A DNA stretch of 64,000 bases from Dicyema japonicum (Eukaryota; Animalia; Dicyemida): assembly GCA_011109175.1 (NCBI GenBank), contig RDEW01000007.1, forward strand, positions 1,498,236-1,562,235, given 5' to 3'. The position numbers were made by a program, and so were the translations under genes. The notes below the pieces were generated by a model. It was not told the origin of the DNA, did not search any database, and saw nothing but the letters and a program-made list of their open reading frames with translations. Positions 39,060 to 61,929 of the stretch are shown in pieces. Each line of letters opens with the position of its first letter. Position 1 is the first letter of the stretch.

Positions 39060-39220
39060 CTGATGCTGGAAACAATTATCACTTCTAAGGAAGTTCAGAG
39101 TGCCTGTAGCAATCTAAAGAATCACATGAGCACTGGACAGATAGCATCTCTTCGGAACTGCTGAAAAATGGACTTATATATGTCTTCGAAACCATTGTGA
39201 CATTAATTAATTGTTTTCTT
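39060..39220 (+). mobile_element. LINE RT N-terminal fragment
   Basis: ITSKEVQSACSNLKNHMSTG.DSISSELLKNG. Confidence 0.55.
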
Positions 39221-39784: not shown

Positions 39785-42490
39785 CTTGTATCAATCGACG
39801 AATACATAAATCTATGAGTGTTGCTTCTGATAATAGCTTAAAATGACAATTATGAAAATACAAAAAAATAAGATCATTTAATAATTTTTACTGCAAATGC
39901 GTTAATATAAAAAACAGGAACATTATACAATAGAGGGATTTGATGGAACAGGAAATCATTAATTTTTAGATGGACAATAACATAGACTTTTTTTAAATAA
40001 AAATAGGTTAAATATTTATATTTCGTTTACAATGAATGGAAAATGAAAATAAAAAATATTAATTATTTAATCTTAAATAAAATTTTGGTGTTATTTTCAT
40101 CAATAATGGAAGATTGTTTGTATCAATCGACGAATACATAAATCTATGAGTGTTGCTTCTGATAATAGCTCAAAATGACAATTATGAAAATACAAAAAAA
40201 TAAGATCATTCAATATTTTTAATTCAAATTCGTTAATATAAAAAACTGGAACATCACACAATAGGGATTTGATGGAACAGGAAATCATTAATTTTTAGAT
40301 GGGCAATAACATAGACTTTTTTTTTTAATAAAAATAGGTTAAATATTTATATTTTGTTCACAATGAATGGAAAATGAAAATAAAAAATATTATTATTTAA
40401 TCTTAAATAAAATCTTGGTATTATTTTCATCAATAATGGAAGATTGCTTGTATCAATCGACGACTACATAAATCTATGACTGTTGCTTCTGATAATAGCT
40501 TAAAATGACAATTATGAAATACAAAAAAAGACATTTAATAATTTTTAATGCAAATTCGTTAATATGAAAAACATGAACACCATCAATTGAGGGATTTGAT
40601 GGAACAGGAAATCATTATTATTTTTAGAAGATAATAACATAGACTTTTTTTAGAAAAATAGGTTAAATATTTATATTTCGTTGACAATGAATGAAGAATG
40701 AAAATAAAAAATATTAATTATTTAATCTTAAATAAAATCTGGTGTTATTTTCATCAATAATGGAAGATTGCTTGTATCAATCGACGAATACATAAATCTA
40801 TGAGTGTAGCTTCTGATAATAGCTTAAAATGACAATTATGAAAATACAAAAAAATAAGATAATTTAATTATTTTTAATGCAAATTCGTTAATATAAAAAA
40901 CAGGAACATTATACAATTGAGGGATTTGATGGAACAGGAAATCATTAATTTTTAGATAGACAATAACATAGACTTTTTTCAATAAAAATAGGTTAAATAT
41001 TTATATTTTGTTCACAATGAATGGAAAATGAAAATAAAAAATATTAATTATTTAATCTAAAATAAAATCTTGGTGTTATTTTCATCAATAATGGAAGATT
41101 GCTTGTATCAATCGACGAATACATAAATATATGACTGTTGCTTCTGATAATAGCTTAAAATGACAATTATGAAATACAAAAAAATAAGATAATTTAATAA
41201 TTTTTAATGCAAATACGTTAATATGAAAAACAGGAACACCATACAATTGAGGGATTTGATGGAACAGGAAATCATTAATATTTAGAAGAGATAATAACAT
41301 AGACTTTTTTTTAAAAAATAGGTTAAATATTTATATTTCCTTACAATGAATGGAAAATGAAAATAAAAATATTAATTATTTAATCTTAAATAAAATCTTG
41401 GTGTTATTTTCATCAATAATGGAAGATTGCTTGTATCAATCGACGAATACATAAATCTATGAGTGTAGCTTCTGATAATAGCTCAAAATGACAATTATGA
41501 AATACAAAAAAAGATAATTTAATAATTTTTTACTGCAAATGCGTTAATATGAAGAACAGGAACACCATCAATTGAGATTTGATGGAACAGGAAATCATTA
41601 ATATTTAGATGGACAATAACATAGACTTTTTTTAATAAAAATAGGTTAAATAATTATATTTTGTTTACAATGAATGGAAAATGAAAATAAAAAATATTAA
41701 TTATTTAATCTTAAATAAAATCTTGGTGTTATTTTCTTCAATAATGGAAGATTGCTTGTATCAATCGACGAATATATAAATCTATGAGTGTTGCTTCTGA
41801 TAATAGATCAAAATGACAATTATGAAAATACAAAAAAATAAGATCATTTAATAATTTTTACTGCAAATTCGTTAATATGAAAAACAGGAACACCATCAAT
41901 AGAGGGATTTGATGGAACAGGAAATCATTAATTTTTAGATAGACAATAACATAGACTTTTTTTTTTTAATAAAATAGGTTAAAATATTTATATTTGTTAA
42001 CAATGAATGGAAAATGAAAATAAAATTAATTATTAATTAATGAAAAAAAATTATAATAAAATCTTGGTGATTTTCATCCATGGAAGATTGCTTGTATCAA
42101 TCGACGAATGCATAAATCTATGAGTGTTGCTTCTGATAATAGCTTAAAATGACAATTATGGAAATACAAAAAAAGATAAATTTTAATTTTTTACTGCAAA
42201 TGCGTTAATATGAAGAACAGGAACACCATCAATTGAGGGATTTGATGGAACAGGAATCATTAATTTTTAGATAGACAATAACATAGACTTTTTTTAAATA
42301 AAAATAGGTTAAATATTTATATTTCGTTCACAATGAATGGAAATGAAAATAAAAATATTAATTATTTAATCTTTAATAAAATCTTGGTGTTATTTTCATC
42401 AATAATGGAAGATTGCTTGTATCAATCGACGAATACATAATTCTATGAGTGTTGCTTCTGATAATAGCTTAATATAACAATTATGAAATA
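39785..42490. repeat. ~330-bp AT-rich tandem repeat, ~8 units
   Basis: Same marker at 39788, 40120, 40450, 40774, 41105, 41433, 41758, 42094 and 42419. Confidence 0.97.
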
Positions 42491-42678
42491 ACAAATATTT
42501 AGGATTCTTCGATATATTAAATTAATATATATATATATATTCAAGTGATTTGATTCATTCAAATGATAATTGACTGGTGTATTATATTTTTAACTGGATA
42601 CGCAAGTAAATCTTTATATGTAAACTTTAGGTTTCATACATATAGAGAATTTCGTTAATTCAAGTAGTGAGATTATAT

Positions 42679-43300
42679 CAAATGGTTCATTATTAATTAT
42701 TTTAAGAAACGATAATGCCAGCATATTCAAATGGTTCATTAATGGTTATTTTAAGAAACGACAATGCCAGTAAATTCAAATGGTTCATTAATGGTTATTT
42801 TAAGAAAAAATGCCAGCAAATTCAAATGGTTCATTAATGGTTATTTTAAGAAACGACAATGCCAGTAAATTCAAATGGTTTATTAATGGTTATTTTAAGA
42901 AAAAACAATGCCATCAAATTCAAATGGTTCATTAATGATTATTTTAAGAAATGACGATGCCAGCATCTTCAAATGGTTCATTAATGGTTATTTTAAGAGA
43001 CGATAATGCCAGCATCTTCAAATGGTTTATTAATGGTTATTTTAAGAAAAACAATGCCACCAAATTCAATTGGTTCATTAATGGTTACTTTAAGAAACGA
43101 TAATGACAGCATATTCAAATAGTTCATTATTAATTATTTAAGAAACGATAATGCCAGCATCTTCAAATGGTTCATTAATGGTTATTTTAAGAAATCGATA
43201 ATTCGATCATTTAGAATTTGTTCATTAATGGTTATTTTAAGATACGATGATGCCAGCATCTTCAATTGGTTCATTAATGGTTATTTTAAGATTCGACAAC
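42679..43300. repeat. 49-bp minisatellite, ~13 units
   Basis: Same unit as 10755-11525. Confidence 0.97.
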
Positions 43301-43789
43301 TGAATCAGACAGTATTTCTTGACTGTCCAAGATATTAATTAGTTTAATTCTGAGGTTTTGTTAAAAGGGAAAAATTTGGTTTCTTTATAGCAAAATAAAT
43401 TTAATATTTGATTATTTAGATATGTTAGCCTTTTTGTATTAATTTCCAATCATGTTGTTAAACACATTAAGCAAGTTTCTTGCATCTGTTGCTTTGGACC
43501 GCTTAGAGCATCCTGCAGGAAAATACCTGTGAACAAGCCATGCTGGCTACCTTGAACGAAGGACGACAACGGATATTGTGTAGAGCCATAGATGGCAGTC
43601 TGCAACAGCTCAAAGATATGAAAATGACACGACAATCCTTAGGATCGATATGTCAACCGTAATAACCGAAATTAAAAAAATGGATAACATCCTTTATGAA
43701 CTTTGCCCACATGCTAATAAGCTTAGATCCCTTATGGGAGACACAGAAGAAATAAATAAAAACACTTTCAGGAAGAGCAATGCAAAAAA

Positions 43790-44310
43790 CACAAAATGGA
43801 ATGGCTGAAAGGACTTATTATTAATATACTGATGCGCATGTTTAATGCATTTGTGAAACCAATACTATCATATTATGCTGGTACTGTTCATTTGCGGAAT
43901 CGATGGGTCTCGATACGTGGACCTGTTCAATTGCGGAATCGATGGCTCTCTATATGTTTTACACAAGACAGCTTAGAGTGTTATTTGGCATGCAGTGGCC
44001 CGCCAGGATCTCATATGCTGGAATTTATAAAAAATGCAAGAGCAGGTCTCTAAGCTCGGAAATCACTGACCTTCGGTGGAGATTGTTTGGACACATTCTG
44101 CGTATGGATCTCGCTGCCCCATCGATTGCGGCGATGGAAGACCACTTCAACTTGGCGGTTAACTATTTCCTTGACCGACCAAGGAAACCACACTCTATCA
44201 TACTGCACATAGACTTCCAATGGGTGAGGAAATGCCTCAAGACGGAGACGGTCTGGAAGAGCTGAGGTCGATTGCTTGTAACAGTGGAAGATGAAAGAGA
44301 CTAACTAATA
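43790..44310 (+). mobile_element. RTE-like LINE 3' fragment (copy B specific)
   Basis: MFNAFVKPILSY, RQLRVLFGMQWPARIS, RWRLFGHILRMD. Confidence 0.8.
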
Positions 44311-45228
44311 AGACTTTTTGACATTATCCAAAATTTGGACGTTTTTTGATTTTGTAACTTTCGTTTTATAGAATATTTTTGATTAAAAATCACATATTAG
44401 TAAGTTTTAAACAATTATAAGGAGTGTGAATTAAAAATTCAAGTCATCTTACGTTCTCCCAGAACTCTTGATAGTATTGGAATGTGATCCATATCTAAAT
44501 CATAATTGACGTCCGACGTGATTGTGTGAGAAATAGATATCAAGAGAGAGATCTGGCGAGGTTAAGGACTCGCCACTTCTGGATGGAGCTCAAATTTGTT
44601 TGTCCAGAAGATTATCGATTCGAAATGAATCCATTCCCTTTCCCACAAATAAGCCCTGGATAATTTCTTATGCAGGTAACCATAAATGATATCATTGAAC
44701 GTGTTCTTGAAGCTGGTGAGTTCTCTTCGTCATCGACCATGTTTGACTTTATCGTGGAAATTGGAGAAGATTAACAGGATTGAAATCTTTCCATTTACCA
44801 AAAACACTCTTTGTATGGTTACCTTGGTGATATCTTCCATGACGAAACGATGGAAAAAGTTAAATATATATATGGCGTGACCATCGATGCTAAATTCAAT
44901 AACAATTTATTTTAATAATTTCTAGGCACTAATAAAAGATTTCTGAGATATGAGAAGGGGGACAAAGGGAGACAGCCCACGTGGGTAAAAAATCAAAACT
45001 TGATTTTTAAACTGCTAATTTAAACACTCTTCTTTTAACAAGACTTATTTCAAGTTTCCTAAGTATTTTTAAATCAAAACTAGACAACTGAGTTATCGTG
45101 CCATATATATATATATATACATACAACATTAAGCATTAATAAGGATACAAGTCCGGGCTGTGGAGGTCAAAGAAACGACTAACGTCGTATGTTAAATAAT
45201 CGAAACTCGCTCCGCTGGAGATAGACCA

Positions 45229-45257
45229 TGTGCACGCGGAGCGTGCGCAGGTCTAGT
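45229..45257 (+). mobile_element. Probable Helitron-type 3' terminus
   Basis: GC-rich hairpin tgtgcacgc-gga-gcgtgcgca (45229-45249), then CTAG (45253-45256) and T; (TA)n tract at ~45103-45119 upstream. Confidence 0.55.
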
Positions 45258-48019
45258 ATTTTATTAAAGCTCGTGAATAATGTATAATTGGCCGCGTAGC
45301 AATTGTGGTTCGACAGAATAATATGCTAGATATGGAGGATGTCCAGTCGCCAAAATGCCTGAACAAAACAAGAGAAAGAGAACAACAAAAAACCCGTTCG
45401 GATGTTTTCTATCACCACGATCCATGCCAACCGGTTCCAGATATCACGGGAATCCAGCGCCTCAAAAGAACGCTTCACAACCTAGTTGATGGATTCATGC
45501 CCCGAAAACCGGTCACTGCTGAGATGGCAAAAGAGCGAGGAAATCCTTTGCAGTCCACTATAGATTCACAACGGCATGGATGAGGCTGGGACAGGTCAAT
45601 CCCGAGACAGATGGTTATCCCACTTCGGAGCGTGTCCTGTTCCATATGGAACCATTGACGATGATGAGAACGCGTTCAGCCATGCACTGCTGTGGGGGAA
45701 GAAACTGATAGAATGCAAGCCCGACGGTGAATGTTTTCCTTTTCCATAAGGGTAAAGTGAGCATTTTTGTCTTAATATTGGTCCTACTACTCGGCATAAA
45801 CTTTCTGAATTGAAACTAGACTTTCCCTTCTTCTTGATCATCTGTAAAATGAATTATTCCACGTCTAAATGAACATGTCTAAACTCTATGAGGAATTAAG
45901 TAAACTCCTTGACGTCTTCAATTATGGCACTCTATTTTTGAGTCCCTCAATTTCTTATACCACAAATGCTACCAATGCCTATTCAAATCAAATAATTCAC
46001 ATTTTTTTCAATAATTTTTGCCATTCAGTATTATATTCTTCTAGTATTAAATAGGGGTACCAAGACGCCATAGAATATGAATCGAATTAATTCCAGAGAT
46101 ATTAATAATTCATCCAATTTAAAGATTAGCCAATTAGCGAGAGTCGACTGAATTCAAAAAAAACAGAAACAACTTTATTAAACATAAATTCAGAGATAAA
46201 TGAGAGTTATTTAATTAATCCTGCCTCTATGCACTAGACAATTTGTCAGACAGTTACGTAATCACAGTTCTCGTAATCAAGGATTTTCTTAATTAATCGA
46301 TTTTTTTGCATTGGAAATCGGCAGACCAAGCAGGTTTCCATCCTCTTCATAAGTCCGAAGGAATCCTCATATGCGATTAAGTGTAGTTTTTTCGGTTAGT
46401 AGGGAATTCAACATCGGATTTTTTATTTTCTCAACACTGTACTTTGTCAACAATATCTTGTCTTAAATTTGAAGAAATTGATTAAAAAATTTATTCTAAA
46501 TAAATATAATTAAATTGTGATTTTTAAGAACTCTCATTTGCACAAGGCCTTAGCTAACAAGACATTTAAAGAAAATAGGTTAATCAAATTCAAAGAAATT
46601 AATAATGCTTAGACGGTTATGAGGCAACAACAAGATGAAAAGTAGTGGTGAAAATAAAATTCGACAATATGGATGTGAAAGGAAATTTATGTTAATGAAA
46701 CTGGAATTAAAAACTAGAAATAATAGTGATTATATGGTATACTCACCCAATCCAGTATTATTTGTTATAGGACATGTTTACCTCACCCCTGCCGAGAAGG
46801 CAATGATAGACTGCTATGGACTGCACCCTCTCGCCTGCAAGAGGAGCGCTGACAGATCTCCAAGGCACAAGGTTCTGAATGAGATTGTCAAGCGGGCTAT
46901 GGATGCTGCTGGATACTCGACCATTCTTGAACCGGTCGGGTTGTACAGAAATTACGGGAAACGACCGGACGGGATGACATTTTCTTTTTGAAGGCGACAG
47001 ACACGTTCGCCCAGAACAAAATTCACGAGTGCGCTTCAAGGGCCTTCTCTGCAGTAGTCAAAACGGAGGAAAACTAGAAATGAAATATATCACAAGTCGG
47101 AAGGATATGTTCACAATTACGAAGGAACCCATTATACTGTGGAGAAGCATATCAAGTCGGAAGGATTATTCACAATTACGAAGAAACCTATTGAAAGCGC
47201 AATAGACGAAGGGTCAAAATCTCTGGATATTCTCCAAGTTGGATCTGGTACCCACAACAATTGAATCCCTACATTCGAATCTGGGTCTACACGGAACTTT
47301 GTCATCCTCCGGACTTTGATCCCTACAGGACCTGGGACTATCGTAGATGTACATACTAGAGTTGGGACCTACCGGGGGGTACCCATATTAAATGTTCTTT
47401 ACATTCGAATTGGGTTCTACGCAAGACTTTGTTAACCATATTATTGGTCCCTAGAAGGCGGCTTGGGACTACTGTGGAAAAAACATACTGGGGAAGGGAC
47501 CTACTAAGGGAGAATTAACTGGAGATGGGCTTACTAGCTTTGTGCCTACTACGCTCCGGATATAAGGGCAGGATTCATGGGATCCAACACTAGAACGAAA
47601 TTCAACCAACGATAGAAGATTACTAAATGGAGTGTGGATACATCTGAAGTGTCCAGGCCGCATAGGTGGACACGTATAAATATCCTGCTTTTTTGTAGAC
47701 AAAAGTGAATTTTATAGGTAAAAATACAAAAATACTTTTTTGCTATTTTTAAAAAAAAATTATTTTTTCGGTTTCCCTACTTATTAGTAATTCTAATAGA
47801 TTCAACATAAGCAGAATCACAGCAAGATTGTGTTCATTGACTTTTTTTTAAAGATGATGTCTTCCTTAGTGACTAATTTGGCTGTCATTTAATTTTAAAA
47901 TAGCGTACACATTTCCAAATTGTGCCTTTGCCATTACATGTTCAAAAAAGTAAATATTGTCAAACCTCTTGAAAATATTATGATTAAAAGCACTTTCACA
48001 CTACTAATAACGTTTATAA

Positions 48020-50366
48020 TAACTAAGGTCCCGTTTGAGCCACACGTTTCAAATCTGCTTTACTAGGCGTATGCATCGCCGTCAACATTTCGCATCTGTG
48101 CTTAGATCTTTTAGGTCATCTGTATATTAAAGTTTTCTTTTAATTCCATTAAGATCCTTGTTCAGAGCCACGGGTAGAGTGACTCTGTGTTTTTTTCTGA
48201 ACGATCGTTTGTTCTCATTAATAAAGTAACTGTCCATTATTATATTTGCAAGAGCGTTTATGTCCATTCTATGCACGTGCCCAAACAGTCTCCTTTTTGA
48301 TTAAATAATGTCGATGCTTATTGGCCTCGTATTGTGCTACATGTATAAATCCTTATTTGAAATCTTCTTGGACAACTTAGGCTCAATAAATTGCGCAGTT
48401 GTTTTCGATAAAATATATCCATTTTCTTGAGCTCTGTAGTTCCCATGTGCTAAAGTTGTACATAAGCACCGGTTTTATATATGCGTTTTATAGTCTTATT
48501 CTTAGATTTGCTTGTTATTAGTTTTCGTCCACTTTATATATTCTGCATTTTCTTTTACATGGCAGTGGCTAGAAGTCTTCTATACATCATGTCTTCACTA
48601 TCACCAAGTAAGGATCCCAATTTCTTTTTCCCCAATTTTCATCAATATATTTTAATTCCCTTTGATTCTTATGTGTTCAGTCTTTATTGATTAACTCGCA
48701 AAGACCAATTCTTAAATTCTCCTGGGATTTTTTCTAAAGCAAGTCCGACTTCCAGATCATTTTCTGACACAAAATCTATGTCATCTGTATATATAATCTC
48801 CATCGGCATGCATTCATCACACTTTGTTCTAAAAGCTCTCAATCTCGGTTCCAGGTATACGACGAATAGAACCTGAGATAGAGAGTCTCCCTGATGTATT
48901 CCAACTGTTGTCCCAAAAGGCATCGATGTTTGTTCCCAACTCGTACAGTTAATTCAGTGTTTGATAATAAGAAACGGACAAGTCTTGTGTTATCCTCATC
49001 AAGAAAACTCGCAGCAACGTCCAACAATGTTTTTCTGTTGACAGTGTAATCGCACTGGATATGTCCCCTCCCAAAATCTTAAAATCACTTATGTGTCGTT
49101 GACACATGGCACATATCCACATGTGAGAACAAACAGCATCTAAGATCGAGCGTCCATTTCTGAATCACTCTGTTCCGGCTACATAAATTCTTAAACATCA
49201 GAAGATTTCCGACTAAGGGTTATCAGAGAATATATCTTCCTCAATGTTACCAGTAATATCACAGGTCTTAGATTTTTATAGGTCCTTTGATAATTCCTGG
49301 TTTATGCAGAGGAATCAAACTTCCATCACCAAATTTCAAGTGGGAATGCGTCTTAAATACCTTATTGGAAATCTTTTTAATGAGAGTTGTCAGTTAACCT
49401 GGTGCAAACTTGATCATTTCTTTATGTATGTTGTCTAATCCCATTGCCTTGTTGTTTAATTTAATGATTGTCAGATTAGTTTTCCTCTGTAAAGATCGTT
49501 AGATTCAGTCATCTTGGTGATTTCTCAAATGGCTCCAGATATAAGGTTTCATTTCAAAAGTCCTGAAAAATGTTCGGCAATAATCTCAGTTTTTTCTTTA
49601 TTATCCAATACATTTCTTTCTTGATTGTCATGAATACAAATATTCGTAGGTTAAACTTTTCTCTGCAACAGGCGAACTGCTCGAAACTTTTGCGTCTCGT
49701 TTCCCAATTTCTCAATTTCACTGACACGTTTGTCAATTTTCTTGAAATAAATTTTTTTCTTCCTCGTTCTAATCTCTTGATAATACGATTTCTTTCTCTT
49801 TTTAACTCTTTGTATGTATCATTATTTGTACATGATTCCATTCTCTGCCGCTTTTTTTTGTTTAATTGTGATCGATTTCGATCGATGACACTTTTATATC
49901 TGCCTGCCTCCTCTTTTCCCCAAGCATGTCGAAACTTGCCTTCTTTATTCCACCAACAGTAGCATTCCAAATCATTTCTATGTGATTTTCCATATGTATG
50001 TTTAAAATCTATTTCTTATTTTCCATCCACTAATCTTCATGCGTCGAGTCACATAAGCATAATTTTTCTACAATAAAAAGATTCAAATGAGCTCTCTTCT
50101 TCTTAGCTCCCTCTATTCCGAAAAATCTTTTCATTCTGAAACGTGCAACCAGCAGTTTATTATCACTATAAGTGATGGTACCTTCATAGCTTCTGGAGTC
50201 AGTTAGTAAAGGACGAAGAAATATTTTACACATAACATAATCAATCTGATTGTATATCCGGACATAGTCACCATTTCCATCTTTTCTGAGTCCAGTCCAC
50301 GTGGTCTTATGTCTCGCATTGTGGTCGAATGCAGAATTACAAATGAAGTAATCAAACATGTTACAA
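48020..50366 (-). mobile_element. RTE-like LINE, degenerate, copy B
   Basis: ORFs 50030-50359 (APE) and 48684-48923 (GIHQGDSLS, IIYTDDIDF); paralog of 15140-17490. Confidence 0.85.
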
Positions 50367-53300
50367 AATATGTCTCAGAATACTACTGAAATCGTCAAAA
50401 AAGACCTTACGGAACGTCACCGGGAAAAAGATGGCAAAGTCTTTTGACCATCCCCTCGGGCAGCACATCAAACTATATATGAGCGCCTTCCAGAGATATG
50501 AAAAGAAACCTACCCCGCTGTGGAGAATATTTCAGGACTCCAAAACAAACCGCAGGAAAATGACTGATGGACACCAGGATCACTTATTTAGACGATAACT
50601 TCTATCCTCTTTCTCGTGATTTCGGGGTTAATAAAATAACCGGTTTATTGTGCTTGACTAACACGAGGTACGAATAAAAATGTCTACCTTGATCTGGACC
50701 TTGGTATTCTCTACTTCAGATTGCATTTATGAGACCGCAACTTTCTGGTGTGGCGAATGATGTATTGCATAACGGGAGAAGAAGACTCATTACTACCTCA
50801 TTATGCATCTATAGTCATGGTAGTGATGGATCCGCACCGAGTGGCTAAATGATCAACCGACACGTTCTTTGACTTACAATGAGTACTTATATTTGTTGGT
50901 CGAATTCAAAATATTACAATGAGTACTTATATTTGTTGGTCGAATTCAAAACGCCTTCACATTTACTAGTCCACCATCATCAACACCATACATAGTATAC
51001 AAAAAGGTCTGATGGTGCCTAGGTGAGTGGCCCGTGTTTTTTCCGTCGTTATTATGGCGTGTTCCTAGACTTACTATCAGGATGTCGTGCATTCTCAATA
51101 AGGATACGCTTACTTAGTGGCTAATCAACACAGTTCACGACCAAATTTTTTCACCGTGTATAAGGTTCTCCTTATTGGATATGGTTTTCTCTCAATACTC
51201 CACAAATCCTAACATTCCATCTTTTCATAATCTTTAGACTCAAACTCCACAACAACTATGAGTAATTTAGCAGCAATATATCATACTTATTTAATGCAAG
51301 GAACAAATTCTTTGAATTTAGTAAAACTCTTGCATAACAATGGTGCTCTTCTATTATCTGTGGTGACTTCAATGCGAAGCACGCATTTTGGTTGACAGGG
51401 AACGACCGACGAACCCATGACAATAGGAGAAGATGCTAATTGAGGACCATTTACAGTTTATGTATATTCGACGATCCGGCTTCCCATACAAGAAACCCTA
51501 CTCGACGTAACGATAAACCTATATCCATTGACATTTCACTGTCAAAACCGTCTTTGTTCCCTCATATTGACTGGTCAGTAAAACATGACATCACTATTCA
51601 CAACAATAAATGACATTTGATTACTTTTGTATCTTTTCAATACATGGTTATCCAAAAATGGGATTTTCTTATTATTAGGGAGTTGAAGATATTACTAATA
51701 AGTACAAAGGTTCTGGTGATCTCCGTTTGCTGGTTATTCCAGAGTTTGTTTGCACTTTTATTGTTTATTAGTTATTTAGTTTTCAAAAAATTGATTTTTA
51801 AATTCTAAAATGATTTAATGGAGACAGACATCTCATATAAATTTGAAAAAAACATAAAATTACGTGTTGATATAGAAAACACGACAGGCAACCTCAAACT
51901 ATTTGAAAATTAGTGGTTTTATATATTTTTGTATAATTGTCCCTTAAGCTTTAAAAATAAAACTATCACACCAACATCTCTTGTCAGACCTATCCAACAA
52001 AGATGATTTTAGTCACTCTTCCAGTTGTAATGTTTCCATTAAATCCCTGGATGCACACTTTTTTTATCAAAAAGATAATTCACAGGATTTAAATTTGGTA
52101 AACTTGAGAAGACCGTCTATTTTGAAAAGAAGCAATGTAATTACTGTGGAAAACTGTACACATTAATAAGCCCAAGAAAGATATTGTTTCCAAGGATTTA
52201 TCTATGGAAACCTAAGAAGGATGTCTGCAAGATTTGAAGCATAATCTCTAAATTCACATCCCCGAACACAAGTTCACGTGTACAGTCTTGAAGTTTCATC
52301 TTGTCTGCAAAATCGACTACCCAAATCAAAGCGTCTGTTTTCTGAAAATAATTCCTCCAATATGAACGGATTGACTTTTGTCCCCCAACATCCCATACGT
52401 TGAGCTTGAAGCCGTTGCATCGATGATGATTATGTTAAAGCCCAAGGTAGGAGCCACATTGTCGATGGACTGATTGCAAAAGTTCTTCTCTCAAGCCTAC
52501 AGTCTATAGAACATCCCTGCCACTCCTATGCAAACCGCAAAACAAAGGAAAATTATTATGACAATCAGTGACCTCTCCCGTATGTTATTATCCATTCCTT
52601 CCATCTCCAATGACAAGAGTCGTCTGAAACTTTTTACGAGAAGCATCCGAAGACTCGGAGACAATAAAATATTACAGCGACCTCCCCCTCCAATAGACCA
52701 ATCAAAATGCTCTCTTTCAAGGACGTGCGAGTAAACCTGGCTCGTCTACGATGTGGGCACCACCCATATCTACCAACATATGATATACTCTGCCCCTTTT
52801 GCAACCTCCACGTGCTGACAACAAATCACCTATTTCAATGTCATGAATTGGCACAGCGTTTCTCCACATTGCCGGAACTAACCGATCAATGGGAGTGACT
52901 AACATCTGCTGCGTCATACTTAATAGCTGCTGGCTTCCTACAAAGTTAGTGAGGCTGGGGTTACTTAACTAACTAATTATTTGTTTATAGGAATTTTTCT
53001 ACTACAACTATTATCAATTCTCTATATTATCTCTCCAATAGACCGAATCGAAAAATTGAGAGGATTTCTTGAAGTACATTGATCTATAAGGTCACTCTTT
53101 TGTCGAATCAGATATTTTCTTGTATATTTTAAACAGTAACCCTTACGAGACGTATTTGGTGATATTGGACACTATCTTCCCTCATCTTACAATTGCCGAA
53201 AAATGTGTGTAAAAATAATTACAGAGTCAGCTTGACAGAATTAAACTATTTTTGATGTTCTGCATGTCTTTAGTATTATGTTAATATAGAGGTATATGGC

Positions 53301-54207
53301 AAATTAATAAAGAAGAAAGAAACACACTTCATAATAAAAGAGGTTGCTGAACACATTCAGAAATTGAATTTCGATTATGTGGAATCGGGAAGTATTTATT
53401 AAACCCTGGCTTGCTATATTTGATAACCCCAGCAGAAACAGCCATAACTATTAATCCAAGGAGGGGATTCAAAGAGAACCTCTGCTTTGCTGACCAAATC
53501 TATACTCTAATATTACATTACAGGCTTCTGCTTAAGAAGAGAGGTGAAGTAGGTCCGCCCTGTTCTATTATCATCGCAGGTCCTACCGTCAAGGAGATGA
53601 TCACTATATTCTGCAGCGGAAAAGTTTTTTATTCAAAATGTAATCTTCACCAGAGGAGTTGGTCAGGGGGAAGGTAGGACCCATGGTATTTTATACTTTC
53701 CCTTTATCAAATACTCATTCCTCACTGATCTTGACATACAAATGCAGATCTCATCCCTTTATACGCTATTTTCTCATTCACAATCACCATCATTGATTTT
53801 AATATTTTCTCATTCAACTCTTACGGAAAACAAACTTTAGAGCCGATCTCCTCATCTTTTCCAAAATCAAATAATTCTCTCCTTAGAAAAGGAAACCACC
53901 TCTCACATCAATATAAGACTGTTGGCAGTGATTCCTTGAAATCTAAAAAATATTTCACCGAATCTTGAACCTTTAAATACACAGCTTCAAAAAAGTTTTC
54001 TTTCTGGTTTTAAAATCTTCACTGTAATAGTCGCCTTTGTGTCCAATACCCAAATAGCAAACTAGTTCCACATTTTCTGCATTATTAAGCCATCTTTGCC
54101 ATTTTAATTGTCGTATGTGATAGCGTCGTGGCTGATGAGACTGTCCGGGATGATAAGACAAATTTATCACTTGAAAACATTAACAACCACTAAGTTTTTT
54201 TCGAAAG

Positions 54208-55215
54208 ATCTGTCCCTTGTTCCCTCAAAAACGAAAAATTATAGTTTGAGTCAATAAAGCGATTAAGCAAAAAGAGGGTCGAAAATAGAATAAGTCGAAG
54301 GATCGGTCCTTGTTCTTTCAAAAACAAAAAAATTTAGTTTGAGTCAATAAAACGATTAAGCGAGAAAAGGGTCGAAAATAGAAGAGGTCGAGGAGGATCG
54401 GTCCTTGTTTTTTTCAAAAAACAAAAAAATTTAGTTAGAGTCAATAAAGCGATTAAGCAAAAAAAGGGTCGAAAATAGAATAAGTCGAAGGATCGGTCCC
54501 TTGTTCTCTCAAAACAAAAAAATTAGTTTGAGTCAATAAAACGATTAAGCGAGAAAAGGGTCGAAAATAGAATAAGTCGAGGGATCGCTCCTTGTTTTTT
54601 TCAAAAACAAAAAAAATTTAGTTAGAGTCAATAAAGCGATTAAGCAAAAAAAGGGTCGAAAATAGAATAAGTCGAAGGATCGGTCCCTTGTTCTCTCAAA
54701 AACAAAAAAATTTAGTTTGAGTCAATAAACGATTAAGCGAGAAAAGGGTCGAAAATAGAATAAGTCGAAGGATCGATCCTTGTTTTTTTTCAAAAACAAA
54801 AAAATTTAGTTTGAGTCAATAAAGCGATTAAGCAAAAAAAAGGGTCGAAAATAGAATAAGTCGAAGGATCGGTCCCTTGTTCTCTTAAAAACAAAAAATT
54901 TTAGTTTGAGTCAATAAAACGATTAAGCGAGAAAAGGGTCGAAAATAGAATAAGTCGAGGGATCGGTCCCTTGTTCTCTTAAAAACAAAAAATTTTAGTT
55001 TGAGTCAATAAAACAATTTTGCGAGAAAAGGGTCGAAAATAGAATAATTCGAAGGATCGATCCTTGTTCTCTCAAAACAAAAAAATTTAGTTTGAGTCAA
55101 TAAAGCGATTAAGCGAGAAGAGGGTCGAAAATAGAATAATTCGAAGGATCGCTCCTTGTTTTTTCAAAAACAAAAAAATTTAGTTAGAGTCAATAAAGCG
55201 ATTAAACGTGAAAAA
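54208..55215. repeat. ~94-bp tandem repeat, ~11 units, with A/B dimer periodicity
   Basis: Unit gatcggtccttgttctttcaaaaacaaaaaaatttagtttgagtcaataaaacgattaagcgagaaaagggtcgaaaatagaataagtcgaag, starting at ~54208, 54301, 54396, 54491, 54582, 54678 and onward. Confidence 0.97.
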
Positions 55216-55689
55216 GGTTGAAAAGACTTTTGTAACATTGAAATTTTAGCATTATTATGTGATTGGGGGATAACGGCGATTCATGGTAAACCAAGACAAC
55301 CACAATCACAAGGGTAGGTGGAACGCTAAATTAAACGTTACTATGATTGGATTGAAAACTACTGTTTATAATATAACATTTCTATGCGTAGTGTTACTGA
55401 AAAGTCACCTTTTAGGTTAGATTTATGATTTTATTTTTACACTATTATTTGTAACTTCAGGATTTAATACTGTTTCTGTGTCTGATATTAAGTGATCGAA
55501 TTACCAGCCCAAAGAGCTGAACATTTTTCAGATGATGAAAATCAATCAAGACAATCTTGAACTTTGCTTGGTGTATCAACTCCAACTCTTTGGAAAGAAA
55601 CTTTAGTTAGCATAAAAAACTTTTTAGTAAGCAAAAGAAATGATTCTACTTTTCAATTTTCCATTTTTTCTCTTTCCATTTTAATGGCT

Positions 55690-56870
55690 CATTTTTTCAG
55701 TGAAAAAAATGAGAAAAGGGTCCAGAGACGGTGAAATATAGAAACCGATACAGCATCTTCAACAGAGGTCCCTAGGCCAATTGCTCAGTGGTACTTGTCG
55801 CGTCTTTGATGTATAAAGCTTCCTAAACTCAGACTCTGGCATATGGACTGGACTTTCTAATATCGAAGATTACGCCTGAAAGTCAGAAAGATAGAAAAAT
55901 TTATTACATCACTTATGGAAAATGTGATGTAATTTTTGGGGTCCGAAACGAAGTAGAGACATGTTGGTGTCTCATAAAATGACCCTACACGATGAATACA
56001 AACCCACTTAATTAGTTTTGGTTCAGGTTTTGGTTTCTTTACAGTAATTAGTTTTGGGGTTTGTTAGAAAATAAAATTGTCTTGTCTGTCTTTGTCTTAG
56101 AAAATAATCTCTTTAGTTAGTTAGTAGGAAAATAATCTCTATAGCCAGCACGATCCAGATGGAAGTTCTAATTATAAACGAAACTAAATTATGGAAGATG
56201 CCCAAGGCTGTTGAAGCTAAGATTGCGAAGAAAAACAAAATTGACCAAAAAAGGAAAGAATCGAATGGAAAATTATTTCTAAAACGAGAAAATGCCCACA
56301 ATGGAGAAAGTGAAGTTTCCAAAATTGGAACGAATAAGAAATTAAAGTCAGAGTTTAGAATGTATGGGCAGAGTGGCTGGAATACGACATATAATAAGAA
56401 ACCTTCTAAAAAAAAACAGTAGAAGCTTCAACACAGAGAAGAGAGTGGTGCTCTTAAGAAGATAGGGCAGCCACCGAAAAAACCAGAAGTAGTCAGGATA
56501 ACCCTGATTAATGCCCGTTCTCTTCGGAAACGGGCCTCAGTGCTGGTCGCTATAGCCAGCACGAATCCAGATGGAAGTTTTAATTATAAACGAAACTAAA
56601 TTAAGCACATGGATTGGATTTAGCATCTGAAATTGATGACGAATATGAAAGAAAAACAAGAAGAATCGGTGATTTATTACATTGCTTGTGGAAACTCGCA
56701 TTGTAATTGGGGCTTTTTACGGAGAAGAAACATACGGTGTCTCATGAGAGTGCCCCGATATAGACGACCCCAAATCTTGGCTTTCCTCTTTAGTTAATGG
56801 ATCTTACCTTGTTTAGTTAGTTGGGGTTTTGCGAATAAATCATGTTATCTGTTATCTGTTAGGATTTGCT
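55690..56870 (+). mobile_element. Head-to-tail mosaic of deleted copies of the downstream LINE family (two 3' ends and one ORF1/ORF2 junction)
   Basis: 55837-56095 matches 60396-60657; 56410-56600 matches 57700-58035 with deletions; 56620-56870 encodes SEIDDEYERKTRRIGDLLHCLWK, resembling the ORF2 end SNIEEDYDLKVRKIEKLLHHLWK. Confidence 0.85.
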
Positions 56871-56890
56871 CGTTTTTTACTAAGACTACA

Positions 56891-57930
56891 ATGTTCTCTG
56901 TCAGGTTAATTATTAATTCTAAACATGGGAATTTAACTATTGTTAACATCTTTGATGGGATGGAATCAGCCAGAAGAGCTAGGATTTCTCGTCGACATAC
57001 TGGCGATTTTATCCTGCAGTTTAAGAACTTGGAAGACCTTGAAGATTTCAAAAAGTCAATGAATGATAGTAATCCTTTTGGATTGGGTGGACATGAGATG
57101 GAGGAAGTAAAACTGCCTCCTTCGACTATAATTCTAAAAAATGTTCCGACATGGATAGAGATGGATGAATTAAAGGATTTTCTTCGGTCAAAGTTGACAG
57201 GAGAGTTCCGAGCTGAAAGATTTGTACGCCGTGGTGTTAGCTTGCCTATTGTTAAGCTTGTCTTAACAAGCAGGGGAGAAGCAGAATCCATTGTCAGATT
57301 GGGATTGATTATTGGATTTTTGAAGATGAAAGCGGAATGGTATATAAAACGAGAAATTCAGTGTTTTCGTTGTCAACAGTTTGGACATATTGCTCGGTTT
57401 TGCAAGAACTTAGAAAAGTGTCTACATTGTTCGGGATCACATAGAAGATCTGAATGTAAAGCATCGCATGATACAAAAAATTGTGTTAATTGTGGGTCGA
57501 CTACTCATCTGGCAAATTATGGAGGTTGTCCGAAAGCTATGGAAGCCAATCGTGAGAAAATGAAGAAAGTTGCTGAAAAGTCAAAAGTCTCCAAAAAAGA
57601 AGATAAGAAACTTGCCAAATCCGGAAATAGTCATACTATAAAAATGCTAAGTCAGCTTTTCTTGATGGTCGAACTTGTTGGAATATTCCAACGGTCAAAA
57701 GGGCAACAGTAGAAGCTTCTACTCAGACAGAAGAACCTGTGAAGGGAAAGAAAGAAGAAATCTCAACACAGGTCAATGATGGTGAATGTCAACTTGATTA
57801 TTCACAAACTTTGAAAAAATTAGAGAAAAGCATTATAGAAGTAACGAAAACAAAAAAGGATACGAAGCATTTATTGGATTTGGTGGCGATCCTAAGAGGA
57901 GGGATCAGCCACCAAAAAAATCAGAAGTAA
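56891..57930 (+). CDS. LINE ORF1 nucleic-acid-binding (gag-like) protein; one internal frameshift near 57650
   Basis: QCFRCQQFGHIARFC, CLHCSGSHRRSEC, CVNCGSTTHLANYGGC; TAA at 57928-57930. Confidence 0.88.
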
Positions 57931-57973
57931 TCAGGATAACCCTGATTAATGCCCGCTCTCTTCGGAAGCGGGC
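57915..57973 (+). promoter_or_regulatory. Candidate -1 programmed ribosomal frameshift signal (second copy at 56477-56535)
   Basis: In-frame X_XXY_YYZ heptamer A_AAA_AAT (57915-57921), 6-nt spacer, hairpin taatcagg-ataac-cctgatta (57928-57948), hairpin gcccgct..tc(TTCG)ga-agcgggc (57951-57973). Confidence 0.65.
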
Positions 57974-60493
57974 TTCAGAGCTGACTGCATTGGTCAGCAC
58001 AGTGCATATGGATGTTTTGATAGTAAATGAGACGAAGATCAAGAAGGGAAGTTCTTTTAAACTTAATGGATTTTCATCAATTGATATTCCGTGGAAGAAG
58101 GGTTCTATTTCTGGAACTGGAACTTCGATTTATTATAAATCTAATTTGAATACGAAGAGACCAAGAATTATTGAAGAAGATGTATGTGAACTAGTCAGTG
58201 TGCAAATACAAACAAATATTGGATGGATAACAGTTGGAGGAATTTATTCTAAGAGCTTACGTGAGTACCCTTGGATCATTGAGAAATTTTTTAACGAAAA
58301 CGTGAATTCGATTTTGGTTGGGGACATGAACGCAAAGCATGTTGATTATGGATGTGTTACAACAAATCAGGATGGAAAATGTCTTATAAAGTGGATGGAA
58401 TCAGGAGAATTGAAAATTTTGACGTCAGCAGAAATAAATCACTATGCAACTTATAGTGGTGATAAACTTGGATTGTTCATAATGCCTCTGACGATGAGTG
58501 AAATGTGTGATCCTCCATATATCGAAAATGACATAGGAAGTGACCACATCCCACAAACGATTGAATTAAAAACTGGTCCGGTTTACACACGACAGTTATT
58601 CATTGGATATGATGTCAGCAAAATTGATTGGAATCACTTCAATTTCTACATCAGGCTGAAAATTGGTAATGTTTGTGATTTGGGGATTTCGAAACCGGAA
58701 GATATCGACATTCTGGATAACAAAATAAGATCTTTGTTGTTAAGTTATCTGGAAAATTATGGAAAAAGAAAAAATCTGTTGCCGCAGGAAAATATGATAA
58801 TAGGAGTAGAAGAACGCTCTTTGCGTCAGGAGAAGAATAAGTTAGAAAATAAATTAAAGAGGTGTTGGGATATCTTCGACTCTCAAGAACTTAAAATGCA
58901 GATCAAGTTAGTGAAGAAGAAAATAATGGATGTTGTAAAGAAGAATGAAGAAAAAGTATGGAAAAGAGAATGTTCAAAGTTACGTCGACAGAACCCAAAA
59001 TTTTGGAAACTATATGCAAGAATGAATTCTCCCAGTAATAAGAATGAAGAAATATCTCTCAAGTCAGATGATGGTCTCACTATTCCAAAAGAAGAAATTC
59101 CAAATGTTTTACGTCGACAATTGTCCAAAATTCAAGAGATAGATCCGGCATCTTTTATTCCGATAGAAGTACAAGATACAAGAAGTAGTTATAAAGAAAA
59201 GTCGAAATTGAGTGGTCCCTTGTGTCATCCTATAACGCTGGAAGAAATAAATGCTGCAATTAAGGGTTGCAAAAATAAAGCACCAGGGTGGGATTTTATC
59301 CCAATGAGTATTTTCAAGAACGCAGGCCCAATTTTGATTGAGTGCCTAAAATATTATATAATTCTTCTTGGAGTTTTGGTCATGTTCTAGCTTATTGGAA
59401 ACGAACAATTGTACGCATGGTTGTGAAAAAAGGAAAGCCAAGGTCAAAAGCAGATAGTTATAGGCCAATTAGCCTAGTCTGCTCAATATCGAAAGTTATG
59501 GAAAAAATTGTTTTCACTCGTCTATCAAGGCATGTTGAGGATAATAATTTTTTCTCTAATAATCAACTGGAATTTCGGCATAAAAAAGGGACTGGAGATT
59601 GCTTTAAAGAGCTAAGATCTGCAATCGAAATTTCACGAAATAAAAAGGAATTTCTTACAATAGCATGTTTGGATATAACAAAAGCGTTTGACAGTGTTTG
59701 GCACTTTGGACTTCTTGATACGTTGTCAAAAGCAGAAATTGGGAAAACTGCGTTATTATGGATAGAAAACTTTCTTTCAAAAAGAAAGTCATATATACGT
59801 GTTGGAAATTTAATTTCAAAGAAAATTGAATTGCGAAGAGGAGTTCCACAGGGTTCAATTCTCAGCCCGCTACTCTTCAATTGCGTAATGAGAGATTTGC
59901 CGAAAACAGAGAGCGTAAATAGTCAAATGATTATTTATGCTGATGACATTCTTGTGCTTGATTCAAGCATGAATAAACAAATTTCATGGAAAAGGGTGGA
60001 ATCCCATATTACTAAGATTGGAAAGTGGTGCCAAAACAATGGGTTGACTCTATCGAGGGAAAAAACAACAGTCACTTGGATTGCAAGTAAAAGAAAAAAT
60101 ATTAATCAATGTGTGAATACTGGGGATATAAAAATCTCTGAAACATTGAAGTATCTCGGATTGTTGATAGATCGAAGAGGATCTTTCAAGGAACATATTA
60201 AAACACGAAGAAAGAAAGCTACAGGAATGTTGAAATCTTTAATTCGATTTCATTTGGAGCTTGAAACTTTTCTTTTTGTGTATTCGGCGTGTGTTGAACC
60301 TTTCTCGATATATGGTTATCAAGGATGGTTTAGAACAAAAGAAAGTGATGTCTTTGTCAAAAAATTTGAAAAGTCCAGAAGATTTGCGATTAAATTGGCA
60401 TATGGACTGGACTTAAAATCCAATATCGAAGAGGATTACGACCTGAAAGTCAGAAAGATAGAAAAATTATTACATCACTTATGGAAAATGTAA
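57915..60493 (+). CDS. LINE ORF2 (APE endonuclease plus reverse transcriptase), -1 frame relative to ORF1; one internal frameshift near 59345
   Basis: ITLINARSL, DVLIVNETK, VGDMNAKH, GSDH, YRPISL, CLDITKAFDSVWH, GVPQGSILSPLLF, YADD, KYLG. Confidence 0.9.
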
Positions 60494-61929
60494 TGTAATT
60501 TTTGGGGTCCAAACGAACTAGAGACATGTGGTGTCTCATAAAATGACCCTACACGATGAATACAAATTCACTTAATTAGTTTTGGTTCAGGTTTTGGTTT
60601 CTTAACAGTAATTAGTTTTGGGGTTTGTTAGAAAATAAAATTTGTCTTGTTTTGTCCGAATTTACTATAAAGTTACTTTATATCTCGTTTCTTCTCCCAC
60701 ATCGGTAAGAAATTTTTGGGTGTTTTTTTATGGACATCAGTTTTTTGAGCCTAAGCTTTTCAATATTCCACAATTCCCTCAGAATTGTTCATTTATCTTC
60801 TAAATTCACTATAAATTCCGGTTTGTTGGTTGAGTTACCTGACCTCGCTAACCTGCAGGAGGCTAACTGCTATCAAATAAGATTTGATGAATGTCGGTTG
60901 CTCCCATAGATCGGTCACTTTTGACGCAGTAGGTTGGAAAGTTCCGGGCATTAGTATCATCTCGATGAAGAACCAAAAAACAGAGGACATCTTCGCTTTA
61001 TATGAGTAGGGAGATGTGTTTCAACACAGACGATCCAGGTTTACACACTTGTCCCAATTGTCGCCATCTTAAGGTGAACCACATTGACAGCCCTTCACTT
61101 CATAAAGTGTCACGTGTTATTTTAACTTTTAATTTATTAAAAATCGATATCAAAAATATTAGTTCATGTTTATTTTGTAAGATTTCAGACATATATCCTC
61201 AGCTTCTCACAGTCGACTGAGTGTTTATAATTTTGGTCGGATGAGATTCGAACCCAGATCATAATGGTTTTTAATAAATAATAAGTGCTTACCGTTTTAG
61301 TAATATATATAATGAATTAGAGCCTGATCTTATGTGGCCTTGGAGGGAAATCTACTGAAATAGCCGGGAGCGCTCAAACAGGTCTCTGAATCGATGTGAG
61401 TCGGATTATTCTAGCTAATTAAAAAACAGATTTTTTTTTCTTAAATTTTTATTAATTTATTAAATTCAGACTTTTTCGAAATTATGAGTCATTTTTGCTA
61501 ACGCAAACTCCAGCTGTTAATTTGGGAATATTGTTTCCTCATGACGAACATATGGAGTCTCAATGACAAGCGTCTATACTTTAAACTCATGCCCAAAGTT
61601 TCACGAAAATTTACAAACTTGAGGATTATGTGTAATTTATGTCTGGTCTTTAAAATACCTAGAAAGGGATCGGAGTAAGCGCTGATGGATATTTGATCAA
61701 ATTTCGCTTGCCATCCTGAGAGGGAATAGCGAGAGTGGCCGCTGTATGACCCTCGACTGACTGTCTCTTTATTTTATTTCATTTAACTCATTAATACAAA
61801 ATTACCTAGACAATCTATTTTATAATAAACAAGTTAAAGTCATCTGTAATTTCGATAAATTTTTGAGTCTGCTAATTAAGCAAGTCGATAAAATAATCCG
61901 ACAGATGTTTTTTATTACAATATAAAAGC

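What the first reader, a model, noticed from the sequence alone, without database searches (positions are those of the whole stretch)
57915..57973. Retrovirus-style -1 frameshift cassette at a LINE ORF1/ORF2 junction, supported by covariation in a second family member
Seen in sequence: ORF2 overlaps the end of ORF1 in the -1 frame. That frame is open from ~57799 but has no ATG until 58008, which lies after the first APE motif (ITLINARSL), so ATG initiation would give a truncated endonuclease. In the ORF1 frame, A_AAA_AAT is followed by a 6-nt spacer, an 8-bp hairpin starting at the ORF1 stop, and a GC-rich hairpin with a C(UUCG)G loop. A diverged relative at 56477-56535 has A_AAA_AAC, the same spacer and stop position, a G-U-tolerated change in hairpin 1, and a C-G to T-A double change in hairpin 2. 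Established: a heptamer, a 5-9-nt spacer and a downstream structure is the canonical -1 PRF design; L1 and SART1 instead express ORF2 by reinitiation or coupling. Inference: this family makes an ORF1-ORF2 (gag-pol-like) fusion, which is unusual for a non-LTR element. Caveat: both hairpin-2 changes are also synonymous in ORF2.
Basis: partly seen in the sequence, partly recalled or inferred. Interest (0 to 1): 0.85.

Follow-up and report, generated by a model that had tools for sequence, protein, structure and literature searches.

The report
Slippery four-hairpin junction in a LINE
In this jumping gene (a LINE retrotransposon) the second gene has no start codon and overlaps the first inside a cluster of four predicted RNA hairpins that related copies preserve, so ribosomes likely reach it by slipping back one base on a run of A's, although restarting after the first gene's stop remains a serious alternative.

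Summary
In detail: A_AAA_AAT (57915-21) lies in the ORF1 frame, 6 nt before a hairpin that starts at the ORF1 stop; ORF2 is in the -1 frame with no ATG before endonuclease motif 1; no contig shows another A-run length. The heptamer is less conserved than the structure: 6 of 8 contigs from a second organism read A_ATA_AAT or A_ACA_AAT, and an abundant sister family keeps the stop and hairpins without any A-run; a relative has Met at that very position. Hairpin 1 is weak. So covariation proves structure, not slippage. Best reading: an AUG-based stop/restart junction whose AUG was lost and replaced by -1 frameshifting (0.5); rivals: non-AUG reinitiation (0.28), a 26-nt mini-intron (0.08). This copy is broken in both ORFs as assembled. 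-1 frameshifting is already asserted for Dictyostelium TRE LINEs; I found no experimental proof in the papers searched.

The parts
55837..56085 (+). 3' end (ORF2 C-terminus, 3' UTR, short tail repeats) of another copy of the same family, head of a head-to-tail array
   Evidence: 93% identical to 60396-60650
56136..56862 (+). Internally deleted sister-type element: patches of ORF1 tail, the whole junction, start of APE, then jump to ORF2 C-terminus, 3' UTR and TGTTATC tail
   Evidence: 79% identical to the main junction over 155 nt
56477..56483 (+). Sister heptamer A_AAA_AAC in the ORF1 frame
   Evidence: T57921C carries 174275 of 220954 summed depth in X2 and 214.8 of 218.6 in X5
56891..57712 (+). 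ORF1, 5' part as assembled; three CCHC knuckles; probably 5'-truncated; ends at TAG after a break near 57639
   Evidence: zf-CCHC E=0.0013; four more letters behind 57639 in 6 contigs of X2; P0161, 55% identical, has a longer N-terminus
57640..57930 (+). ORF1 C-terminal tail frame, ending ...LLDLVAILRGGISHQKNQK*
   Evidence: loose ends of diverged contigs keep K-K-D-x-K-x-L-L in this frame (read by eye)
57880..57915 (+).
   Evidence: -21.3 kcal/mol; compensatory pairs 57889/57905 and 57892/57902
57883..57908 (+). 26-nt GT...AG stretch whose removal would join ORF1 to ORF2 in frame (rival model)
   Evidence: the only such candidate of 2 that is kept in the sister copy; 58% GC
57915..57921 (+). 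Slippery heptamer A_AAA_AAT in the single-stranded linker
   Evidence: 57917 is T or C in diverged contigs
57922..57927 (+). 6-nt spacer
   Evidence: substitutions at 57923, 57926, 57927 but no indel listed
57928..57930 (+). ORF1 stop at the base of hairpin 1; TAA, TAG and TGA all occur at this place in relatives
57928..57948 (+). Hairpin 1, 8 bp, -8.5 kcal/mol
   Evidence: six stem changes all keep pairing, incl. U-A to U-G to C-G at 57931/57945, both nonsynonymous in ORF2
57951..57973 (+). Hairpin 2, 7 bp plus 2 bp, about -13 kcal/mol
   Evidence: compensatory 57956/57968; the stretch 57948-84 is the part shared with the heptamer-less family
57978..58000 (+).
   Evidence: compensatory 57984/57994
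57798..59390 (+). ORF2 first part (APE endonuclease and linker), -1 frame relative to ORF1; first ATG at 58008
   Evidence: Exo_endo_phos_2 E=3e-9; TRAS1 endonuclease E=4e-4
59342..60493 (+). ORF2 second part (reverse transcriptase), after a frame break in this assembly
   Evidence: RVT_1 E=5e-39
60494..60655 (+). 3' UTR and short TTGTC-type tail; no LTR

Best explanation
This is the ORF1/ORF2 junction of an APE-type LINE in which ORF2 overlaps ORF1 in the -1 frame, has no AUG before its first endonuclease motif and lies in four predicted hairpins whose pairs covary among subfamilies; ribosomes likely enter ORF2 by slipping back one base on A_AAA_AAY in the linker, which would give a small amount of ORF1-ORF2 fusion protein. 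Shown: frames, missing AUG, ORF2-frame constraint from about 57927 on, conserved hairpins, fixed stop position. Inferred: most ribosomes stop at 57928 and make ORF1p; pausing at hairpin 1, with the stop in its base, lets tRNA-Lys and tRNA-Asn re-pair in the -1 frame (junction peptide ...SHQK-N-SEVIRITLIN). Inferred history: the hairpin scaffold is older than the slip site and served an AUG at 57915-17 (13 nt before the stop; Met there in P0003); this lineage lost the AUG. Subfamilies with A_ATA_AAT or A_ACA_AAT would slip less well, on the A-site half plus partial P-site re-pairing.
For: No ATG and no conserved near-cognate codon upstream of the constrained region: 57930 is ATC, GTC, ACC or ATT, 57936 ATA, ATT or CTT; the invariant CTG at 57942 lies after loop codons that already show ORF2-frame constraint. 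Heptamer in frame, 6-nt spacer, no length change in 6 runs. Placement chance about 0.014-0.027; 1 of 33 distant LINE loci has such a heptamer within 25 codons of motif 1, and 0 of the 16 ATG-less ones. In the linker 57915, 57916, 57918-20 never vary and 57921 is only T or C. A_AAA_AAC, listed among the shiftiest heptamers for mammalian ribosomes (PMC5009743), is the majority form in X2 and X5, while XXX-broken forms are 665 of 108442 summed depth in X2. Natural sites with imperfect XXX exist (same paper). Relatives that start normally keep Met 7-11 codons before motif-1 Asn (P0003, P0004, P0005), so loss of AUG in a diversified lineage fits a mechanism that needs no start codon.
Against: XXX is broken in 6 of 8 organism-B contigs that cover 57917 (T in 4, C in 2; runs X6, X7, X9 are one study, so about 3-4 distinct types), and two of the T types differ at several other sites, so the change is inherited, not decay. 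A high-depth family (X6 record 12, X7 record 16, X9 record 22; depth 160-383 against 2-10 for the others) keeps hairpin 2, a TGA at the same place and its own 7-bp hairpin 1 but has no A-run (loose ends read by eye). Hairpin 1 is -8.5 kcal/mol and starts U-A, A-U, A-U, U-A, whereas HIV-1 efficiency follows the stability of the first 3-4 pairs (PMC3561942 abstract); no pseudoknot from its loop was found. Hairpin 0 lies under the ribosome at the slip site and is not explained by frameshifting. The element is A-rich: A_AAA_AAT occurs 5 times in frame. 16 of 33 control LINE loci also lack an ATG without any heptamer (many may be decayed). The fusion would have no protease to release ORF2p (no such Pfam hit).
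Confidence: 0.5

Rival explanations
1. Termination-reinitiation without AUG: ribosomes stop at 57928, are held between hairpin 0 and hairpin 2, move a few bases and restart in the -1 frame at a non-AUG codon near 57915-57930, making a separate ORF2p (SART1, L1 or calicivirus-like). The A-run is then a decayed start site in an A-rich element.
For: The stop position is fixed at the base of hairpin 1 with all three stop codons; hairpins outlast the heptamer; P0003 has Met at the heptamer's first codon, after the GG...QPP that hairpin 0 encodes. SART1 needs structure downstream of the ORF1 stop; calicivirus ORFs overlap by 1-14 nt and restart even when two or three bases of the AUG are changed; L1 tolerates any sense codon at the ORF2 AUG (PMC5972666, PMC10275272, PMC1965478; passages).
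Against: No UAAUG or AUGA overlap; the codon overlapping the stop is not kept near-cognate; codon 57915-17 is AAA, AAT or AAC, two changes from AUG; no UGGGA-type motif (motif recalled) in 57820-57930 (read); the known natural cases keep their AUG; it does not explain the invariant AAA-Y.
Confidence: 0.28
2. Rare splicing of a 26-nt GT...AG mini-intron (57883-57908) joins ORF1 to ORF2 in frame; hairpin 0 hides both splice sites and keeps the event rare.
For: The candidate is in frame and kept in both window copies; three introns read in a neighbouring kinase gene are 24, 24 and 28 nt; the acceptor A is the conserved bulge of hairpin 0; changes at 57914 and 57917 fall on ORF2-frame third positions.
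Against: 58% GC against 25-29% for those host introns; GT and CAG are explained by the stem; a LINE that copies its spliced RNA should leave intron-less copies, and no 57882-57909 joint is listed among 527 and 272 X2 contigs laid (threshold 1%, contigs drop rare forms).
Confidence: 0.08
3. The four hairpins form one folded domain (perhaps with a hairpin 0 loop to hairpin 2 loop contact) that recruits ribosomes internally, or that serves RNP assembly only, with ORF2 starting at a nearby non-AUG codon independently of ORF1.
For: The structure straddles the heptamer; the invariant AAGA of the hairpin 0 loop can pair with the TCTT of the hairpin 2 loop (5-6 bp in each window copy, in shifted registers); IRES-type initiation has been mooted for non-LTR ORF2 (PMC3894237 passage).
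Against: Only 4 bp of the contact are common to both copies, no covariation; 120 nt is small; no homolog of a known IRES was tested for.
Confidence: 0.06
4. ORF2 starts at ATG 58008 and yields an endonuclease without motif 1, or the lineage lives on ORF2p of AUG-bearing sister families.
For: Met at this place is shared by the window copy, the sister type, P0001 and two organism-B types, and is absent in P0003, P0004, P0005.
Against: Codons 57927-58007 evolve under ORF2-frame constraint, also in unpaired loop positions; motif 1 carries a conserved Asn in all relatives.
Confidence: 0.04

Closest known systems
Retroviral and LTR-retrotransposon -1 frameshift cassettes (A_AAA_AAC type)
   Same: X_XXY_YYZ in the upstream frame, 6-nt spacer, 3' stem-loop, gag-like CCHC ORF fused to an RT ORF in the -1 frame (PMC5009743 passages).
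   Different: Non-LTR element without protease; weak A-U-based first hairpin; extra hairpins 5' and 3'; XXX not kept in all subfamilies.
Dictyostelium TRE5-A and TRE3-A (APE-type non-LTR elements)
   Same: A review legend states that both require a -1 frameshift for ORF2 (PMC5911963).
   Different: Other host and ORF1 type; I saw no slip site, stimulator or experiment in the passages read, and did not see the cited originals.
SART1 of Bombyx mori (UAAUG translational coupling)
   Same: APE-type LINE, ORF2 in the -1 frame at the ORF1 stop, RNA structure downstream of the stop required (PMC5972666, PMC10275272, PMC3894237 passages).
   Different: No UAAUG here (UAAUC, UAGUC, UAACC, UGAUU); in sister families the probable AUG lies 13 nt upstream of the stop. 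Kojima 2005 itself was not held.
Calicivirus TURBS termination-reinitiation; mammalian L1 ORF2 translation
   Same: Short overlap and tolerance of non-AUG codons (PMC5972666; PMC1965478).
   Different: No motif-1 match seen; natural cases retain AUG; L1 has a 63-nt spacer, not an overlap.
Drosophila HeT-A
   Same: Non-LTR element reported to need a frameshift (PMC5009743); also forms head-to-tail arrays.
   Different: The shift lies inside gag; HeT-A has no RT.

Membership tests
APE-type non-LTR retrotransposon (LINE) | ORF2 with APE endonuclease followed by RT | tested here: met
   Pfam Exo_endo_phos_2 and RVT_1; TRAS1 endonuclease best PDB match
APE-type non-LTR retrotransposon (LINE) | No LTRs; 3' UTR with short tail repeats; 5'-truncated copies | tested here: met
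APE-type non-LTR retrotransposon (LINE) | Named clade (Jockey, I, R1, ...) by RT phylogeny | not tested
   No named references at hand; ORF1 with three CCHC knuckles suggests the I/Jockey group (recalled); 7 proteins form their own clade, 100/99
Canonical eukaryotic -1 PRF cassette | X_XXY_YYZ heptamer in the 0 frame with the -1 frame open | tested here: met
   both window copies
Canonical eukaryotic -1 PRF cassette | 5-9 nt spacer before a structure | tested here: met
   6 nt, no indel listed
Canonical eukaryotic -1 PRF cassette | Stable stimulator (strong stem base or pseudoknot) | tested here: inconclusive
   hairpin 1 real by covariation but -8.5 kcal/mol with A-U base; no loop pairing of 5 bp or more
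Canonical eukaryotic -1 PRF cassette | Heptamer conserved across related lineages | tested here: not met
   YYYZ half kept, third X is T or C in 6 of 8 organism-B contigs; absent in a sister family
Canonical eukaryotic -1 PRF cassette | Heptamer-dependent transframe product | not testable with these tools
   needs reporter, Ribo-seq or mass spectrometry
SART1-type translational coupling | Overlapping stop-start UAAUG | tested here: not met
SART1-type translational coupling | Conserved RNA structure downstream of the ORF1 stop | tested here: met
   hairpins 1-3
SART1-type translational coupling | ORF2 made as a separate protein, dependent on ORF1 termination | not testable with these tools
   needs experiment
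Calicivirus TURBS | UGGGA motif 40-90 nt upstream of the stop (motif recalled) | tested here: not met
   not present in 57820-57930 as read
Host-type spliceosomal mini-intron | GT-AG, 24-28 nt | tested here: met
   26 nt, both copies; host introns 24, 24, 28 nt
Host-type spliceosomal mini-intron | AT-rich, unstructured | tested here: not met
   58% GC and inside hairpin 0, against 25-29% GC in 3 host introns
Host-type spliceosomal mini-intron | Spliced reads | not testable with these tools
   only contigs could be laid

The most novel reading that the evidence does not exclude
One LINE clade caught switching recoding mechanism on a single RNA scaffold: sister families restart at an AUG boxed between hairpins 13 nt before the ORF1 stop, while this lineage turned that same codon into an A_AAA_AAY slip site and makes a protease-less gag-pol-like ORF1-ORF2 fusion, a route to the retroviral design inside non-LTR elements.
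Probability: 0.35. Interest if true: 0.78.

Novelty: new variant of a known kind. Interest (0 to 1): 0.56.

Why it matters
How LINEs translate ORF2 is an open question (PMC3894237, PMC5009743 passages); the tested cases (SART1, L1) use reinitiation, and frameshifting is asserted for TRE elements without an experiment that I could see. This junction offers a 150-nt, covariation-supported element with natural variants (AUG-bearing, perfect heptamer, half heptamer) on one scaffold, so one reporter series can separate slippage from reinitiation and show whether a LINE ORF2p works as a fusion. Even if slippage fails, the four-hairpin element around a fixed stop with no AUG is a real, undescribed translation signal.

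Tried and rejected
No whole genome is held for this window, so copies could not be collected; the junction comparison rests on two window copies plus difference tables of Logan contigs, which appear to list only differences about 30 or more letters from an aligned end, so known changes (57930, 57956, 57968) are missing there and counts are partial. No RNA holder listed. Exact-pattern scans for hairpin 2 in viral contigs and hairpin 0 in genome contigs gave 0 matches. The metagenome scan gave 79 loci, all distant (20-36% identity); 33 of 79 had motif 1 located with enough upstream DNA and served as a control. A search for longer proteins with ORF1 as query gave 1 unrelated ORF1, no natural in-frame fusion (weak evidence); the near-length search gave 1 close ORF1, cut short before the tail. 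Long-range pairing of the junction with the element's 3' end (lead from e1-9829915): no Watson-Crick-rich duplex shared by both copies; rejected. My early idea that ORF2-frame protein constraint begins upstream of the heptamer (GG...QPP shared with P0003) is explained by hairpin 0 pairing. An assembly error in the A-run: not supported. 'ATG-less' gene models P0001 and P0008 were not used as evidence for a shared state: they may reflect assembly breaks, and the label does not cluster on the tree (293 of 500 shuffles as low). Inner hairpin 0 is looser in organism-B types (57902A without 57892T in three types; 57889C without a listed partner change in one), and 57901T in the sister copy breaks the loop-closing pair. 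Shuffle control (a) on two sequences is uninformative (96 of 500); slid controls gave 0-1 double changes against 4. Literature searches for a tested LINE frameshift: searches found none; subscription papers and supplements were not seen.

Full report
What is there. The stretch 56862-60655 is an APE-type LINE: ORF1 with three CCHC knuckles, ORF2 with endonuclease and reverse transcriptase, a short 3' UTR and tail, no LTR. It ends a head-to-tail array of related pieces from 55837. As assembled the copy is broken twice: ORF1 runs into TAG 57710-12 after a break near 57639, where 6 contigs of run X2 carry four more letters, and ORF2 changes frame at 59342-90. The window has many indel-like errors in host genes too, so these breaks may be real or technical; the second was not checked against reads. 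Host introns of 24, 24 and 28 nt point to a dicyemid-type genome (mean intron 38 bp in D. japonicum, PMC6736024 passages); the closest proteins are labelled Octopus sinensis on small scaffolds. That assignment is inference.

The observation. The sister copy reads A_AAA_AAC with the stated changes. Folding is far beyond chance: z=-4.8 and -4.1 for the two copies, 0 of 200 shuffles; 0 of 2000 synonymous recodings. No change of A-run length is listed in runs X2, X5, X6, X7, X8, X9.

The structure is larger than reported. 57880-57975 folds at z=-6.7 because a 14-bp hairpin 0 (-21.3 kcal/mol) ends at the heptamer; a hairpin 3 follows at 57978-58000. Between the two window copies 4 of 40 pairs change on both sides (two in hairpin 0, one each in hairpins 2 and 3) against 0-1 in slid controls; 92.5% of cells pair (three of the misses lie beyond a deletion edge of the sister piece; the two-sequence shuffle control is uninformative). 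Contigs add a U-A, U-G, C-G series at 57931/57945, both changes nonsynonymous in ORF2, assigned to contigs by matching depth values. All 9 stem changes in hairpins 1 and 2 keep pairing. The inner part of hairpin 0 is looser in organism-B types. Summed contig depth peaks over 57910-57981 in X2, X5 and X6, as expected if more subfamilies match here than elsewhere; depth is not a copy number.

ORF2 is entered upstream of its first ATG. In 57928-75, 8 of 13 changes are synonymous in the ORF2 frame and the others swap I, V, L, T or S, also in the unpaired loop of hairpin 1. No near-cognate codon is conserved upstream of that loop: 57930 is ATC, GTC, ACC or ATT; the invariant CTG 57942 comes too late.

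Evidence on the heptamer. For: canonical in-frame heptamers occur 8 times in about 1180 codons of the element, so the position before hairpin 1 has a post-hoc chance of 0.014-0.027; among 33 distant LINE loci with motif 1 located (of 79 fetched), 1 has such a heptamer and none of the 16 without ATG; 57915, 57916 and 57918-20 never vary and 57921 is T or C; the AAC form holds 174275 of 220954 depth in X2 and 214.8 of 218.6 in X5, and A_AAA_AAC is among the shiftiest heptamers in mammalian ribosomes (PMC5009743 passages). Against: 57917 is T in 4 and C in 2 of the 8 organism-B contigs that cover it (one study, 3-4 distinct types) and in 665 of 108442 depth in X2, giving A_ATA_AAT and A_ACA_AAT. 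Imperfect XXX occurs in nature, but these two forms are not among those listed. A family at depth 160-383 in X6, X7 and X9 matches only 57948-84; the 30 letters printed before it read A-E-G-L-I-V-L-T-I in the ORF2 frame, close to S-E-G-F-L-A-L-T-I of P0003, with TGA at the stop position, a 7-bp hairpin starting at that stop, and no A-run (read by eye, ungapped continuation assumed). P0003 has Met exactly at the heptamer's first codon, after GG...QPP, the ORF2-frame reading of hairpin 0; for the high-depth family that codon lies just outside the printed letters, so its AUG is inferred. P0004 and P0005 have Met 7-10 codons before motif-1 Asn. Hairpin 1 is -8.5 kcal/mol with an A-U base and no pseudoknot partner, a poor stimulator by the HIV-1 rule (PMC3561942 abstract).

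How it likely works. The scaffold and the stop position are older than the slip site. The simplest history is an AUG 13 nt before the ORF1 stop, used by termination-reinitiation, then lost in this lineage. What replaced it is the open point. I put -1 slippage first (0.5): a diversified lineage lost the AUG entirely, kept AAA-Y at the right distance from a hairpin, and its most abundant form has the best heptamer; LINEs need little ORF2p (recalled), so a weak stimulator may suffice. Non-AUG reinitiation is second (0.28): structure 3' of the stop is required in SART1, calicivirus restart survives two or three changes in the AUG, and L1 accepts any sense codon (PMC5972666, PMC10275272, PMC1965478, PMC2881922; passages only; Kojima 2005 not held). 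A 26-nt GT...AG at 57883-57908 would fuse the frames and matches host intron size, but is GC-rich, buried in hairpin 0, and no intron-less DNA form is listed (0.08). Internal initiation (0.06) and a start at 58008 (0.04) are minor.

Comparison with what is known. It works like a retroviral gag-pol cassette if the best reading holds, but fails strict membership on heptamer conservation and is inconclusive on the stimulator. A review legend says TRE5-A and TRE3-A need a -1 frameshift (PMC5911963 passages; PMC5006619 passages add nothing); HeT-A needs one inside gag; Paramecium LINEs are suggested to use +1 shifting, reinitiation or readthrough (PMC5405496 passages). Searches found no experimental demonstration of -1 frameshifting at a LINE ORF1/ORF2 junction; subscription papers and supplements were not seen. 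Earlier AI notes of this scan report similar junctions in other LINEs; they are leads only. One prompted a test for pairing with the element's 3' end, which was negative.

Verdict. Real, conserved, AUG-less structured junction; mechanism unproven, frameshifting slightly ahead. New variant of a known kind; interest 0.56. The boldest reading, a switch from AUG reinitiation to frameshifting on one scaffold within a clade, has probability about 0.35 and would merit 0.78.

Noticed in passing
window 55837-60655: Head-to-tail array of related LINE pieces, each starting right after the 3' tail of the previous one; a contig of X2 shows another copy cut at 57873 joined to the same TGTTATC tail. Suggests insertion into the family's own 3' ends.
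   Followed up: partly
window 57894-57900 and 57957-57963: Purine-rich hairpin 0 loop can pair with the pyrimidine-rich hairpin 2 loop (5-6 bp); low-depth contigs of X7 and X9 delete 57888/57890-57955, joining just these two regions.
   Followed up: partly
window 2600-3560 (minus) and elsewhere: Host genes (a DCLK-like kinase, primase-like, ARL2-like; names recalled) with 24-28-nt introns and many apparent indel errors; the host looks like a dicyemid-type compact genome although the closest proteins are labelled Octopus sinensis.
   Followed up: partly
window about 2600-20000 and 35500-53000: A block of genes appears twice about 33 kb apart (similar ORFs): a segmental duplicate or two haplotypes assembled in tandem.
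   Followed up: no
window 5828-8924 (minus): A second RT element of another type, two long frames with RVT_1 hits.
   Followed up: no
window 54201-55224: Satellite of about 10 copies with a 92-97-nt period just upstream of the array.
   Followed up: no
L013, L014, L017, L022, L031: Five related LINE loci all lack an ATG before motif 1 and have no canonical heptamer; possibly another AUG-less junction type.
   Followed up: no
window 58008-58010: Met here is present in types without an upstream ATG and absent in those with one; unexplained, may be shared ancestry.
   Followed up: partly
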